A stretch of DNA of 64,000 bases, from NCBI GenBank assembly GCA_051294905.1, contig CM119371.1, positions 35,712,001 through 35,776,000 of the forward strand, given 5' to 3'. Of the stretch, positions 46,643-64,000 are shown in pieces. Positions within the stretch are counted from its first letter, which is position 1, and every line of letters starts with the position of its first letter. The notes below the pieces were generated by a model. That model did no database searches, was not told the origin of the DNA, and saw only the letters and a program-made list of their open reading frames with translations. The translations under genes and the position numbers were made by a program. This DNA comes from Botryllus schlosseri. Taxonomy: Eukaryota.

Positions 46643-46730
46643 AGTAGTATTATACACAGTCATTTGATCCCCTCCAATCAGCGTCGAGTATTTGATCACG
46701 TGACATCTGTTAGCCAATCAGAATGCAGAA
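46643..46730 (+). repeat. Probable left terminal inverted repeat / origin (true length unknown)
   Basis: AGTAGTATTATAC start at the boundary between host-like DNA and the gene-dense block; followed by two CCAATCAG motifs and a CACGTG. The partner TIR is not in the window. Confidence 0.65.
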
Positions 46731-46914
46731 CAATGTGGGTGTGGTTCCAATACGAGAGAGGTTTTGGTTGTGCGAGAGATAGCATAGTTCCAGTCCAGTT
46801 ACGCTGAGATATTCATTACGTCATTGCGTAAGTTGATTACCTATGATTGCGTATTGCACCATATTCATGATTACGTCACAAGCGTAGTTGATGCTCACTG
46901 TTATCTTCAAAACC

Positions 46915-47409
46915 ATGAAATTATTGCGAGTATCACCTGCGCTCACTGAAGAAAAGGATGAAATTATATCCACGGCATATTCCTTAGCTAGAAATTTTAT
47001 CATGTATGAAATCGACGGCTCAAGCGTTAAAGCAAATACGCAGGTGGAGAAAACCTTACGACGAGTTGTTACTGAAATATTTGAGCGATATCGAACTATC
47101 CTAAACGCAGTCTCCAAGCGCCTTCGTTATAGTGAAGTCAATGAGAAATATAAAGAACATTCACCCATTGAGCGAATGTTCCTGATGATAGCCGATGAAA
47201 TATACAAAGATAGTCAAGAAAATTGGGGTCAGATTGTGTCTCTTTATGTGCTTGGCGGCATTCTTGCTCGCAATAACGAGGCTGCGCATAACGGCAGGGA
47301 TATAGATGCTATCATACAGACACTCGGGAATTACATTGCTACTAAAAAACGAAAGTGGATAGAACAAAATGGCGGATGGAGGCATTTTGTCATGTGGTAT
47401 CACTTATAA
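46915..47409 (+). CDS. Bcl-2 family protein (viral Bcl-2-like), about 164 aa, no C-terminal membrane anchor
   Basis: BH1-like ENWGQIVSLYVLGG and BH2 WIEQNGGW; probable start ACCATG at 46915 (ORF track starts at TTG 46888). Confidence 0.88.
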   Translation: MKLLRVSPALTEEKDEIISTAYSLARNFIMYEIDGSSVKANTQVEKTLRRVVTEIFERYRTILNAVSKRLRYSEVNEKYKEHSPIERMFLMIADEIYKDSQENWGQIVSLYVLGGILARNNEAAHNGRDIDAIIQTLGNYIATKKRKWIEQNGGWRHFVMWYHL

Positions 47410-47446
47410 AAGCTCGATCGCAGTTACTATTTGTTATATTTACATC

Positions 47447-47746
47447 ATGGGCTCCGTGCGAATAAATGCTTGTAAGTTTATTGGATCCAAGGCCGTATCA
47501 TGGATAGTATATTCGAAATGTATGAAGATGGTTGGTGTGGATGTAATGGAAATATCGTATCCTTTCACTATACTAGAATGTGAAGGATGTAATTATACAG
47601 AGCTGCTAGCATGTGATCAAGACGAAAGAAAAACAATGAAGATATACGATACTGAAGTAACGAAAGAAGAACATCGAGTTGTTTTTAAGTCAACAGCAAC
47701 AGTAGAACTATCTCATAAATTTGCTAATGCTACTGCTCAAAACTAA
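47447..47746 (+). CDS. Hypothetical protein, about 99 aa, one CxxC
   Basis: Fills the space between the Bcl-2 gene and tRNA-Ala; first non-overlapping ATG at 47447; no family recognised. Confidence 0.5.
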   Translation: MGSVRINACKFIGSKAVSWIVYSKCMKMVGVDVMEISYPFTILECEGCNYTELLACDQDERKTMKIYDTEVTKEEHRVVFKSTATVELSHKFANATAQN

Positions 47747-47769
47747 CATTTAAGCCGTCGCTATCGCTT

Positions 47770-47841
47770 GGGGATTTAGCTCAGCGGTAGAGCAGCTGTC
47801 TTGCAAGCAGAAGGTCACGGGTTCAATTCCCGTACTCTCCA
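47770..47841 (+). tRNA. tRNA-Ala(TGC): tRNA-Ala(UGC)
   Basis: 72-nt cloverleaf; G3:U70 alanine identity pair; anticodon loop CTTGCAA; A and B boxes present; T6 terminator at 47845-47850; no encoded CCA tail. Confidence 0.9.
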
Positions 47842-47910
47842 CTCTTTTTTCCGTTGAAGTGCTAATGACGCAAAGGTGGCGCAATCATTTCAATTTGATT
47901 ATCACTCAGA

Positions 47911-48381
47911 ATGTGTGCTTTGAAAAGACTGTGTTTCGAGCGAGAAAAGTTTCGGAATTGTTCTGATTCTACTATCAAAGCGGGACCGATTGACGAATCG
48001 AATCTATTTAGTTGGTGGGCAACAATTGAAGGACCCCAAGGAACGCCATACGAAAAAGGAGTGTTTAAAATATTAATAGAATATCCCACAGAGTATCCGT
48101 TTCGACCTCCGAAGATGAGATTTGAAACTCATATATTTCACCCGAACATTAGTGTGAAAGGCACTATATGCGTGGATATTTTGCAGAAGCAATGGTCACC
48201 AGCGCTAACTACATCAACTGTGCTGCTATCAATATCTTCGTTACTTGGCGCACCAAATCCAAATGATCCTATGAATGCGGAAAGTGCACATCTCTATCTG
48301 GAAGATAGACAACTCTACTTTAAACGCGCTCAGCAATATACCGAACGCTATGCCAGAGTCAACTGCGATTTGTCAGCGTGA
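47911..48381 (+). CDS. Ubiquitin-conjugating enzyme E2 (UBE2D/E-like), 156 aa, intronless
   Basis: GPQGTPYEKGVF, YPFRPPK, HPN motif and active-site Cys (HPNISVKGTICVDIL), WSPALT, PNPNDPMN. Confidence 0.96.
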   Translation: MCALKRLCFEREKFRNCSDSTIKAGPIDESNLFSWWATIEGPQGTPYEKGVFKILIEYPTEYPFRPPKMRFETHIFHPNISVKGTICVDILQKQWSPALTTSTVLLSISSLLGAPNPNDPMNAESAHLYLEDRQLYFKRAQQYTERYARVNCDLSA

Positions 48382-48571
48382 TTACAATTATTAAAACTAT
48401 CATTTGCTTGTGACTTGTTTATGCCTTGTAAATATTAATTGTGGAGCCCCACCTTTGTAATAAAAAAACTCCATAATGTGTCTTTGTTGGTTATATGAAA
48501 AAATAGCGCGAGTTAGTGATTTATTGGCGAAAGATTATTGCACTGATCTGATGCAACTTGACTTGTGCGCT

Positions 48572-48643
48572 GATTCGTTGGTCTAGGGGTATGATGCTCG
48601 CTTTGGGAGCGAGAGGTCCCGGGTTCAAATCCCGGACGAATCT
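48572..48643 (+). tRNA. tRNA-Pro(TGG): tRNA-Pro(UGG)
   Basis: Body near-identical to metazoan tRNA-Pro; acceptor stem GATTCGT/ACGAATC fully paired; anticodon loop TTTGGGA; T4 at 48647-48650. Confidence 0.93.
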
Positions 48644-48696
48644 GCATTTTGCTACTATCTAATGCGCCTCAAACACACCCGAACACGAGTCAGTGA

Positions 48697-62125: not shown

Positions 62126-62145
62126 TCAGAGAAGACGCCGAGGTC

Positions 62146-62180
62146 TATAAAACCACAGTAGCTAGTGCATAATTTCAGTT
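62146..62180 (+). promoter_or_regulatory. TATA box plus initiator upstream of the BIR gene
   Basis: TATAAAA at 62146-62152 and TCAGTT at 62175-62180, about 31 bp apart; ATG at 62194. Confidence 0.65.
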
Positions 62181-62193
62181 CTATTCAAGAGAC

Positions 62194-62580
62194 ATGGAAA
62201 AGATCAAGCCGTGCGGAACGCATCAATCAATAAAGAATTCCGAGGGCGAAATACTATATGAACCTTGTGATTTATTAAATCAACCCGTCTTTCGTAAAAT
62301 GAATTTCGATAGACGCTTGCAATCATTCGAGTCTCATAAAGAGAATTTCAGAGTTAGTGCATTTGAACTCGCGACTTGTGGACTATTCCACTTAGGATTC
62401 AACAATCACGTCAAGTGCTACATTTGTGGTCAATTGTTTGATAACTTGACAAATTGTACAGATGTCTGGAGCGAGCATGCTAGACTCAATCCTTCCTGTC
62501 CTCTGATCATGAAATTAGCAAAGGATTCTAAGTTCTTTCGCAACGTGCTTATTCGTATACCGCATAGCAGTTTTCGTTGA
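62194..62580 (+). CDS. Single-BIR inhibitor-of-apoptosis-like protein, 128 aa, no RING
   Basis: RRLQSF...ELATCGLF...VKCYICG; exact C-X2-C-X16-H-X6-C zinc ligand spacing. Confidence 0.9.
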   Translation: MEKIKPCGTHQSIKNSEGEILYEPCDLLNQPVFRKMNFDRRLQSFESHKENFRVSAFELATCGLFHLGFNNHVKCYICGQLFDNLTNCTDVWSEHARLNPSCPLIMKLAKDSKFFRNVLIRIPHSSFR

Positions 62581-62589
62581 ATCTTTAAT

Positions 62590-63168
62590 GTGTGTATTTT
62601 TTGTTTAGATCGAATCATGTCTATAGCAATTAGAGCCGAGTCGCAACTCCCAGAAGGACCTCTTCGGAAAGACATTTACATTTTCAATAACATATCGAAG
62701 CTTCGAATCGAAACTGCAGACGATCAGCTGATTGATCCTCGACAAGTACGTGTGTTTCCAACGAATGGCGCAATTCAACGATTCAAAGCAAGTTTAACTC
62801 ATAATGGGAAGCTCGTTGCGTGTTACACTCGAGAAGGTATCGAATACTTTCAGCAAATCAATCTCGCTGATGAATATATATTATATTCTCCGTCGAACGT
62901 CGTCGATGACGTAGAAAATTCACCGCTGGGGTGGATTTTACAAGAAACATCGCGTTACATTGCGCCGAATGGTCAAATACAGCCTATGGATCGCGCTAAA
63001 GCGGGATTTCCAAATGGTTATGGTAACTTTGCTGGGTATTCGAATGGTGGGATGCCGAATGCCAATGCAAGTTTCCGGAATGCTGGCAATGCTACTGGAG
63101 CCTTTCCAAATAGCAATACGCAATACGGCAATCGCAGATGGATGCCAAACAATTCTCAGCAATTTTGA
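62590..63168 (+). CDS. Hypothetical protein, 183-192 aa, with Gly/Asn/Phe/Tyr-rich low-complexity tail
   Basis: Long ORF; alternative start 62617 after an acceptor-like TTTTTTGTTTAG; AATAAA at about 63226. Confidence 0.75.
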   Translation: MCIFCLDRIMSIAIRAESQLPEGPLRKDIYIFNNISKLRIETADDQLIDPRQVRVFPTNGAIQRFKASLTHNGKLVACYTREGIEYFQQINLADEYILYSPSNVVDDVENSPLGWILQETSRYIAPNGQIQPMDRAKAGFPNGYGNFAGYSNGGMPNANASFRNAGNATGAFPNSNTQYGNRRWMPNNSQQF

Positions 63169-63304
63169 ATTGTCTCGGAAGCGCGCTCAATGCGATATCA
63201 ATTGTTTTATTGCTATGTGAGTGGAAATAAAAGCTTCCTGTGATTATGATTGTTGTGTTCGATGATTTTCAGTGCTGATAGACTTATATCAAGATAGCAT
63301 ATGA

Positions 63305-63377
63305 GGTAATTTAATTGCTCAGCCCTGTAGAGCAGCTTTGTGTTTATAAGCAGGTCACTCAAGTTTAGTACTCTCCG
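63305..63377 (+). pseudogene. Decayed copy of the element's own tRNA-Ala gene
   Basis: Collinear blocks GCTCAGC, GTAGAGCAGCT, AAGCAG, GTCAC, TCAA, GTACTCTCC shared with 47770-47841; anticodon and B box destroyed. Confidence 0.6.
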
Positions 63378-63704
63378 TAGAGGTTATTGCACAATCTATC
63401 TCTAATATGCTGCAATACAGACAGGTTCAGACGTGTCTATTCACTTCCGTCGAGTGACTTTTATAACACATTTTACACAATCACATGAGCAGTTTATTAA
63501 TAACCAACAAGCACATTTACTAATCGTTCAGAACAAGGCGTAGAGCTTCTTTGAGATCTTGGCACACTTTCTTGATATCAGAATCCTTTTTTTGATTTGC
63601 AATGTAAAAGCAATAACAGTTTCGCATAGATGAGCATATGATTACGAATAAACCGATATTGAAGTCTTCTGAGAGCATATTCACTAGTCCGCGCAATTCT
63701 GCTC

Positions 63705-63989
63705 TTAGTACGTTATGTCTTTCAGAGCATTTGAATTGCTATTCGAAGGTATCTGACAGCTGTGAACTAATTCTTCAAGTTTGTTCATCGTAGCGTAACG
63801 ACCATTTTTACGAATCCATAACTGTATCATTTGATATCGTTGCTCAGTTAAGTTATAGCAATCCATGTATTGACATTCGGCAATTTCATTGTCAGATAGC
63901 TCAAGTTTTTCACGTGCAAACCTATACCAGTTCATCAGGTCAATTCGATCCATTATGACGTATATATCATTAGCAGTAATCTTTGACAT
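63705..63989 (-). CDS. Death-domain-only protein, about 94 aa (frame stays open to the window edge)
   Basis: WYRFAREKLELSDNEIAEC...LTEQRYQMIQLWIRKNGRYATMNKLEELV fits the FADD/RIP-type death-domain pattern. Confidence 0.85.
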   Translation of the reverse strand: MSKITANDIYVIMDRIDLMNWYRFAREKLELSDNEIAECQYMDCYNLTEQRYQMIQLWIRKNGRYATMNKLEELVHSCQIPSNSNSNALKDITY

Positions 63990-64000
63990 ATTCAATCTGC

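What the first reader, a model, noticed from the sequence alone, without database searches (positions are those of the whole stretch)
46643..64000. Apparently intact endogenous Polinton/adintovirus, possibly activation-competent
Seen: about 20 ORFs with no evident nonsense or frameshift lesions and all recognised catalytic motifs intact (DDE integrase, PolB motifs, Walker A/B, protease triad). This contrasts with the decayed transposases next door. Inference: a recent integrant that may still produce virions.
Basis: partly seen in the sequence, partly recalled or inferred. Interest (0 to 1): 0.7.

Follow-up and report, generated by a model that had tools for sequence, protein, structure and literature searches.

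The report
Young, open-framed Polinton provirus with tRNAs
A virus-like Polinton transposon sits recently inserted in an animal genome with its visible core genes unbroken and with cell-death-control and tRNA genes on board; such intact copies are a known kind, and whether this one makes virus particles is untested.

Summary
Real and mostly as described. A Polinton/Maverick (adintovirus) starts at 46643 with an (AGT)2 end and runs off the window after 17.36 kb, so its right inverted repeat and target duplication are unseen. Polymerase, integrase, ATPase, protease, double-jelly-roll capsid, two pentons and a core-like gene are full length against homologues, with catalytic residues kept. Zero nonsense codons in ten checked genes bound neutral decay at about 0.6%. 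Seven of 21 ORFs have no homologue, so they cannot be called intact, and one in-frame stop separates the BIR gene from the next ORF. Near-identical DNA lies in runs of seven studies. Expression, copy number, free ends and virions were not tested. This scan already reported the tRNA trio on other copies in this genome, and (unchecked) about 60 gene-bearing copies plus hundreds of palindromic satellites. Intact Mavericks are known (134 in vertebrates, PMC8097293). Verdict: new member of a known kind; 'activation-competent' is plausible, not shown.

The parts
46637..46642 (.). candidate left 6-bp target-site copy (unverified, right copy outside the window)
   Evidence: directly before the terminus; 6-bp TSD is the norm in PMC8097293
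46643..46890 (+). left terminus, (AGT)2 end motif, probable left inverted repeat and Bcl-2 promoter region (extent of repeat unknown)
   Evidence: end motif as in PMC8097293
46891..47409 (+). Bcl-2-family protein, 172 aa; departs from the two best PDB matches at one conserved BH1 position, effect unknown
   Evidence: PF00452 E 1.3e-18, model 1-100/100
47369..47746 (+). orphan ORF, up to 125 aa
   Evidence: no match (sub-cut-off only)
47770..47842 (+). tRNA-Ala(TGC) gene, G3:U70 pair present, two stem mismatches, T-run follows
   Evidence: (64.4 bits)
47911..48381 (+). UBE2D-like ubiquitin-conjugating enzyme, 156 aa, active-site Cys region aligned
   Evidence: PF00179 E 1.9e-48
48572..48643 (+). 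tRNA-Pro(TGG) gene
   Evidence: 61.1 bits
48698..49015 (-). orphan ORF, 105 aa; AATAAA overlaps its stop
49129..49446 (-). orphan ORF, 105 aa
49433..49885 (-). adenain-like maturation protease, 150 aa
   Evidence: 18 of 74 loci match; H52, D67, C102 conserved; S273R E 0.008
49882..51159 (-). double-jelly-roll major capsid protein, 425 aa
   Evidence: 70% over 100% to P0001; model pLDDT 71; Foldseek Sputnik capsid E 2e-16, PBCV-1, mavirus
51210..51578 (-). conserved basic core-like protein, 122 aa (PW position, name by position only)
   Evidence: 11 of 74 loci match
51556..52305 (-). penton-like minor capsid protein 1, 249 aa (the more divergent copy)
   Evidence: 12 of 74 loci; paralogue of penton 2, E 7e-8; fold not tested
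52302..53123 (-). penton-like minor capsid protein 2, 273 aa
   Evidence: 10 of 74 loci; fold not tested
53120..53332 (-). small hydrophobic conserved protein, 70 aa
   Evidence: 3 of 74 loci
53280..54293 (-). rve integrase with C-terminal chromodomain, 337 aa
   Evidence: PF00665 and PF00385; D63, D123, E157 conserved
54284..54745 (-). low-complexity orphan ORF, 153 aa
54819..55142 (-). small basic protein, 107 aa, partly conserved in relatives
   Evidence: 2 of 74 loci
55178..55909 (-). A32/FtsK-type packaging ATPase (probable start 55798, inferred)
   Evidence: PF04665 E 8.5e-10; 17 of 74 loci
55803..59732 (-). protein-primed family B DNA polymerase, 1309 aa, OTU-like motif near the N-terminus, nuclease-like insert between motifs A and B
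   Evidence: 50% over 98% to P0008, 1300 aa; alignment A2; no PF03175 hit
59716..60120 (-). orphan ORF, 134 aa
60205..61446 (-). orphan ORF, 413 aa; weak lead to parvovirus NS1/SF3 helicase-like proteins, P-loop-like stretch degenerate
   Evidence: Atlas 0.90; no real homologue; fold failed
61740..61823 (+). tRNA-Leu(TAA) gene, all stems paired, only a short T-run follows
   Evidence: (57.9 bits)
61870..62130 (+). three 81-95 nt direct repeats upstream of a TATA-like box and the BIR gene
   Evidence: families D2, D5-D7
62194..62580 (+). BIR-only (IAP/survivin-like) protein, 128 aa
   Evidence: PF00653 E 1.7e-11; a BIR-only ORF also in L068
62617..63168 (+). orphan ORF, 183 aa, in frame with BIR behind one stop
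63305..63376 (+). decayed copy of the tRNA-Ala gene
   Evidence: local score 68, against at most 46 in 500 shuffles; no Rfam hit
63705..63989 (-). death-domain protein, 94 aa
   Evidence: PF00531 E 2.8e-11

Best explanation
A recently inserted, autonomous-type Polinton/Maverick (adintovirus, probably with a Beta-class/pPolB2 polymerase), one copy of a young family in an animal genome. SHOWN: one end, and full-length genes for the polymerase, integrase, packaging ATPase, protease, capsid and pentons, plus Bcl-2, BIR, death-domain, E2 and three tRNA genes. INFERRED from the family: the polymerase copies the linear element from its inverted ends by protein priming; the chromodomain integrase inserts copies with a 6-bp duplication; the ATPase fills a capsid of major and minor proteins that the protease matures. 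INFERRED for the cargo: Bcl-2, BIR, death-domain and E2 genes blunt cell death and innate signalling in the cell where the element multiplies, and the tRNA genes are Pol III units kept by the element. The family has most likely moved in the recent past. This copy's present activity, and particle formation, are unknown.
For: Full-length core ORFs and kept catalytic columns. Capsid fold. (AGT)2 end. Neutral decay bounded at about 0.6%. AATAAA overlaps the stop in 4 of 21 ORFs, against 0.2 expected. Gene order close to L060. Core region held at half of its words or more in 15 of 24 listed runs, 7 studies; shares of 0.80-0.92 imply 0.3-0.7% divergence. Bcl2 and IAP cargo and duplicate pentons are described for adintoviruses.
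Against: Right end and target duplication are unseen. Seven orphan ORFs are untestable. The window's proteins lie low in the leave-one-out range of conserved columns: capsid 20 of 32, against 0.56-1.0, median 0.94; polymerase 154 of 181, against 0.83-1.0, median 0.98; penton 1 31 of 72 with only 3 homologues. This may be lineage distance, but missense damage is not excluded. One in-frame stop lies between BIR and the next ORF. The run shares do not separate many young copies from one shared insertion, and the best holder may be the source sample.
Confidence: 0.8

Rival explanations
1. The family still completes a virus cycle in this animal: elements are transcribed, free linear genomes and particles form in some cells, and the cargo serves that productive phase.
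For: Complete morphogenesis module with a double-jelly-roll capsid. Virus-style anti-apoptotic cargo. Capsid and ATPase expression is reported in coral polintoviruses (PMC11131425, passages). Apparently free-ended genomes are reported for other adintoviruses (PMC8502044).
Against: Nothing here measures it. Maverick particles had not been observed as of PMC8097293 (abstract), and I saw no demonstration in the listings (20 of 226 shown).
Confidence: 0.3
2. Young but silenced or dead-on-arrival copy: it inserted recently, so the frames are still open, but it is repressed or carries damage that cannot be seen from open frames (right end, missense changes, orphan genes).
For: Open frames only bound age. 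Low conserved-column scores for capsid and penton 1. In-frame stop after BIR. Most vertebrate Mavericks are defective.
Against: All recognised catalytic residues are kept. The closest relatives P0001, P0002 and P0008 share length and most lineage-specific sequence.
Confidence: 0.4
3. Intracellular self-synthesising transposon only: polymerase and integrase move it within the germ line, and the capsid genes are passengers or serve inside the cell.
For: Earlier scan notes (unchecked) describe hundreds of capsid-less palindromic satellites with Polinton ends that moved recently in this genome, which shows that movement needs only a helper.
Against: The whole morphogenesis module is kept at full length, which is hard to explain without selection on particles.
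Confidence: 0.25
4. Host-domesticated or long-fixed insertion kept open by host selection, or an assembly chimera of several copies.
For: Presence in runs of 7 studies would also fit one fixed locus.
Against: Sharp terminus with canonical end motif; 21 tightly packed intronless-looking ORFs; domestication of a whole element is unlikely (inference).
Confidence: 0.05

Closest known systems
Intact Mavericks/Polintons of vertebrates (Barreat and Katzourakis 2021, PMC8097293; abstract and passages read)
   Same: (AGT)2 end; size within 12.7-24.6 kb; polymerase, integrase, ATPase, protease, major and minor capsid genes; accessory region.
   Different: Here nearly all core genes lie on one strand; two pentons; cargo of Bcl-2, BIR, death domain, E2 and three tRNA genes. 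Right repeat and target duplication could not be checked. The host was not identified.
Adintoviruses, Beta-class PolB (Starrett et al. 2021, PMC8502044: passages, part 2 of the text and a supplement search; Buck et al. 2024, PMC11071296, passages)
   Same: OTU-motif PolB without a PF03175 hit, rve integrase with chromodomain, hexon, penton, adenain, FtsK-type ATPase; Bcl2 and IAP homologues and duplicate pentons already reported.
   Different: In that paper tRNA flags are named only for Fig. 6 (viruses with other replicases); 'trna', 'ubiquitin' and 'death' gave 0 hits in its one stored supplement, which was cut when stored and whose picture symbols are not text. Closest capsid relatives are unnamed (70% and 47%); the nearest named one is Patella caerulea at 29%.
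pPolB2 Polintons with VSR insert of marine nematodes and molluscs (Jeong et al. 2023, PMC10748475, passages)
   Same: An insert between polymerase motifs A and B, conserved in alignment A2, with a weak RAP-domain hit at 854-876 (E 0.08).
   Different: Identity of the insert as VSR, and tree position, were not tested.
tRNA-bearing polinton-like viruses and virophages of protists (PMC12220804, passages)
   Same: Element-encoded tRNA genes (558 in a set of about 8,300 genomes).
   Different: Animal host, integrase-bearing Polinton, three tRNAs all with a U-starting anticodon, plus a relic.

Membership tests
Polinton/Maverick | protein-primed PolB, full length with catalytic motifs | tested here: met
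Polinton/Maverick | retrovirus-like integrase with DDE triad | tested here: met
Polinton/Maverick | packaging ATPase and adenovirus-like protease | tested here: met
Polinton/Maverick | double-jelly-roll major capsid protein | tested here: met
Polinton/Maverick | minor capsid (penton) gene | tested here: met
   sequence match to the ORF at the same position in 10-12 of 74 loci; fold not tested
Polinton/Maverick | 5' (AG)3 or (AGT)2 end motif | tested here: met
   left end only
'Intact' Maverick as defined in PMC8097293 | terminal inverted repeats at both ends | not testable with these tools
   right end outside the window; no genome held
'Intact' Maverick as defined in PMC8097293 | perfect 6-bp target-site duplication | not testable with these tools
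   only the left flank is visible
'Intact' Maverick as defined in PMC8097293 | eight conserved intronless ORFs including PW and PZ | tested here: inconclusive
   six hallmark genes met; PW and PZ have positional candidates only (51210-51578, 54819-55142)
Adintovirus | N-terminal OTU-like domain on PolB | tested here: inconclusive
   D218, C221, H305 conserved in A2; the domain itself was not folded, its name is recalled and
Adintovirus | integrase with C-terminal chromodomain | tested here: met
   PF00385 E 6e-10
Adintovirus, Beta class | PolB divergent from pfam03175 | tested here: inconclusive
   no PF03175 hit at E up to 5, but 10 of 40 homologues carry it; no comparison with the Terrapene reference
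Adintovirus, Beta class | GasderminX and Cupiennin accessory genes | not tested
   no reference sequences were fetched
Polintovirus with a productive cycle | capsid transcripts, free linear genomes, particles | not testable with these tools
   no read evidence obtained; no genome held

The most novel reading that the evidence does not exclude
This family is a currently productive animal polintovirus that carries its own tRNA set and a four-gene cell-death and ubiquitin toolkit, and it acts as helper for the hundreds of palindromic satellites that other notes report in the same genome. Because the host species label has bulk and single-cell RNA runs, the open question of whether animal Polintons form particles could be addressed by observation in this host.
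Probability: 0.25. Interest if true: 0.75.

Novelty: new member of a known kind. Interest (0 to 1): 0.33.

Why it matters
Intact Polintons are common, so intactness alone is not news. What remains open in the papers I read is whether animal Polintons form particles (PMC8097293 abstract; PMC11131425 offers expression as support). A young family in a host with public DNA and RNA runs is a place where existing data can show expression, free ends and insertion polymorphism. The cargo is richer than usual. I found no report of tRNA genes inside animal Polintons. They are rare in my survey (one other family, L060/L062, among 74 loci), and this scan had already noted them on sister copies.

Tried and rejected
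No read evidence was obtained, so depth, ends and expression are open. No RNA holder was listed (not evidence either way); the rows with small shares (X18-X21) were not used. Three viral-contig scans found no relative. Scan look-ups by relatives, near, sequence and the last word search were blank. The 413-aa ORF: Atlas lead to NS1/SF3 helicases at 0.90, only one low-complexity hit among 1.84 billion representatives, no Pfam hit, single-sequence fold pLDDT 33; left as a lead. BIR plus the next ORF, read with X at the stop, gave BIR only and no RING family, and no longer homologue of the second ORF was found (weak evidence); split gene versus two genes is unresolved. Codon compensation by the tRNAs is not supported from the element's side: RSCU GCA 1.22, CCA 1.02, TTA 1.33, none the top codon of its family; host codon usage was not available. 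The ARAGORN call in L064 has a 109-nt intron and lies inside the PolB match, so I set it aside as spurious. Host identification through the flanking TPR ORF failed. No Polinton remnants were found in the 46.6-kb flank. The supplement of PMC8502044 was cut when stored, and figure symbols are not searchable, so tRNA flags on its adintovirus maps could be missed.
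Full report
OBSERVATION. The element begins at 46643 with the end motif (AGT)2, directly after six bases that are the candidate target-site copy. This is one of the two end motifs used to define vertebrate Mavericks (PMC8097293, passage). It runs off the window after 17,358 bases. No inverted copy of its left 1.1 kb lies in 49001-64000, and no genome is held, so the right repeat and the duplication are unseen. From the 38 ORFs I kept 21 non-redundant ones. With three tRNA genes they cover 87% of the element. Stop-free frames of 150 aa or more occur at 0.75 per kb inside and 0.09 per kb in the flank (13 against 4), so the block is far beyond chance. GC content and CpG ratio are alike inside and outside (0.40 and 0.40; 1.24 and 1.18).

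ARE THE GENES WHOLE? An ORF list is open by construction, so I compared lengths with homologues. The polymerase (1309 aa) matches a 1300-aa protein at 50% over 98% of its length, and the capsid (425 aa) a 426-aa protein at 70% over 100%. In 74 related metagenome loci (the best 80 of at least 475 matches were kept), the best hits span integrase 5-331 of 337, ATPase 47-236 of 243, protease 5-147 of 150, pentons 5-245 of 249 and 3-267 of 273, and the core-like protein 2-91 of 122. The columns that carry the catalytic residues are kept in polymerase, integrase, ATPase and protease (the motif names are recalled). The capsid model (pLDDT 71) matches the Sputnik, PBCV-1, mavirus and iridovirus capsids (E 2e-16 to 1e-13). 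Bcl-2, E2, BIR and death domains cover 1-100 of 100, 3-139 of 140, 1-69 of 70 and 3-73 of 86 positions of their Pfam models. So 12 of 21 ORFs are checked, two have partial matches, and seven are orphans.

RESULTS AGAINST 'NO LESIONS'. The window's proteins keep fewer of the columns conserved in relatives than most relatives do: capsid 20 of 32, polymerase 154 of 181, protease 12 of 16, penton 1 31 of 72 with only three homologues. Lineage distance is the simplest reading, because the nearest relatives share much of this sequence, but missense damage is not excluded. The BIR gene and the next ORF are in one frame, separated by one stop and an open 36-nt gap. Read with X at the stop, they give only the BIR family, and L068 also has a BIR-only ORF, so two genes is as likely as a split one. 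A decayed tRNA-Ala copy lies at 63305-63376 (score 68, at most 46 in 500 shuffles; no Rfam hit). The 413-aa ORF has only a weak lead to NS1/SF3 helicases.

AGE AND SPREAD. In ten homologue-checked ORFs (9,642 sites, 5.0% stop-prone) no nonsense codon is present. This bounds neutral decay since insertion at about 0.6% substitutions per site, or 0.3-0.4% with assumed indel rates (95%). The neighbours are older wrecks: a hAT dimerisation fragment (1 of 86 frames) lies among stops. Of 24 listed runs, 20 hold part of 52000-60000 and 15, from 7 studies, hold half of its words or more. Shares of 0.80-0.92 correspond to 0.3-0.7% divergence. The best holder may be the source sample, and these numbers cannot tell many young copies from one shared insertion. 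Earlier notes of this scan on the same genome, which I could not check, speak of about 60 gene-bearing Polintons, a 17.8-kb copy and several hundred palindromic satellites with Polinton ends, some carrying Bcl-2 or IAP genes. If 17.8 kb holds for this copy, about 0.4 kb is missing from view, which is in the range of a terminal repeat (46-1,447 bp).

Three tRNA genes lie inside the element: Ala(TGC) 47770-47842, Pro(TGG) 48572-48643 and Leu(TAA) 61740-61823, at 58-64 bits. ARAGORN found none elsewhere in the 64-kb window. Among the 74 related loci, 3 have an ARAGORN call. One call is probably spurious. The other two (L060, L062, 99.7% identical, so one family) hold a tRNA-Asp between the polymerase and protease genes. 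So internal tRNAs occur in such elements but are rare: 2 of 24 loci of 10 kb or more, many of them partial. The cognate codons are not the preferred ones in the element, so simple codon compensation lacks support. Topping up a depleted tRNA pool, or a Pol III chromatin barrier near both ends, remain inferred alternatives. tRNAs are described for protist polinton-like viruses (PMC12220804). I found no report for animal Polintons. This scan had already noted the same trio on other copies in this genome.

HOW IT MOST LIKELY WORKS. Shown: the gene set, the left end, the capsid fold, and AATAAA signals overlapping 4 of 21 stops (0.2 expected), which fits compact viral transcription units. Inferred from the family: protein-primed copying from the inverted ends, integrase-mediated insertion with a 6-bp duplication, ATPase-driven packaging into a capsid that the protease matures, and suppression of cell death and innate signalling by the Bcl-2, BIR, death-domain and E2 proteins. 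I put 0.8 on a young autonomous-type family. For the present state of this copy and family I give overlapping odds: silenced or subtly damaged 0.4, productive virus cycle 0.3, intracellular movement only 0.25.

COMPARISON WITH WHAT IS KNOWN. It meets the gene-content tests for a Polinton/Maverick and for an adintovirus. It cannot be filed as 'intact' in the published sense, which needs both repeats and the duplication. 134 intact elements in 17 vertebrate species are on record, and particles had not been observed (PMC8097293, abstract and passages). Bcl2 and IAP cargo (PMC8502044), duplicate pentons (PMC11071296) and expression of capsid genes in corals (PMC11131425) are also on record. The preprint 10.64898/2026.10.13.758929 (passages) had nothing on tRNA, apoptosis or ubiquitin cargo. 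The host was not identified; an animal is inferred from the cargo and the relatives.

VERDICT. 'Activation-competent' is a fair hypothesis that nothing here tests. New member of a known kind, interest 0.33. The bolder reading, a productive animal polintovirus with its own tRNAs serving a large satellite family, has probability about 0.25 and would deserve 0.75.

Noticed in passing
window 61870-62130: Three 81-95 nt direct repeats with palindromic TTGCGCAA and CAGCTG motifs (C/EBP-like and E-box-like, names recalled) upstream of a TATA-like box and the BIR gene; possible inducible enhancer.
   Followed up: no
window 63305-63376: Decayed second copy of the element's tRNA-Ala gene near the right end.
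   Followed up: partly
window 62581-62616: The open gap between BIR and the next ORF encodes a short Cys-x2-Cys stretch reminiscent of the start of an IAP RING (recalled; no Pfam hit) and also holds a pyrimidine run ending in AG, like a splice acceptor.
   Followed up: partly
window 60205-61446: 413-aa orphan ORF with language-model similarity to parvovirus NS1/SF3 helicases and a degenerate P-loop-like stretch.
   Followed up: partly
window 36437-46160: Cluster of nested hAT-like elements with TGACTCGAGTCA-rich subterminal repeats; one hAT dimerisation fragment at 42083-42244.
   Followed up: partly
window 42923-43756: 277-aa TPR-like ORF on the minus strand between the decayed transposons; the only long ORF of the flank with a Pfam hit.
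   Followed up: partly
L060 5443-5514 (and L062 6008-6079): A different Polinton family carries a tRNA-Asp(GTC) gene with a T-run between its converging polymerase and protease genes.
   Followed up: partly
L068 7812-8162: BIR-only ORF directly upstream of the packaging ATPase in another Polinton.
   Followed up: no
window 1-64000: No CpG depletion in flank or element (observed/expected about 1.2), which suggests little DNA methylation in this region.
   Followed up: no
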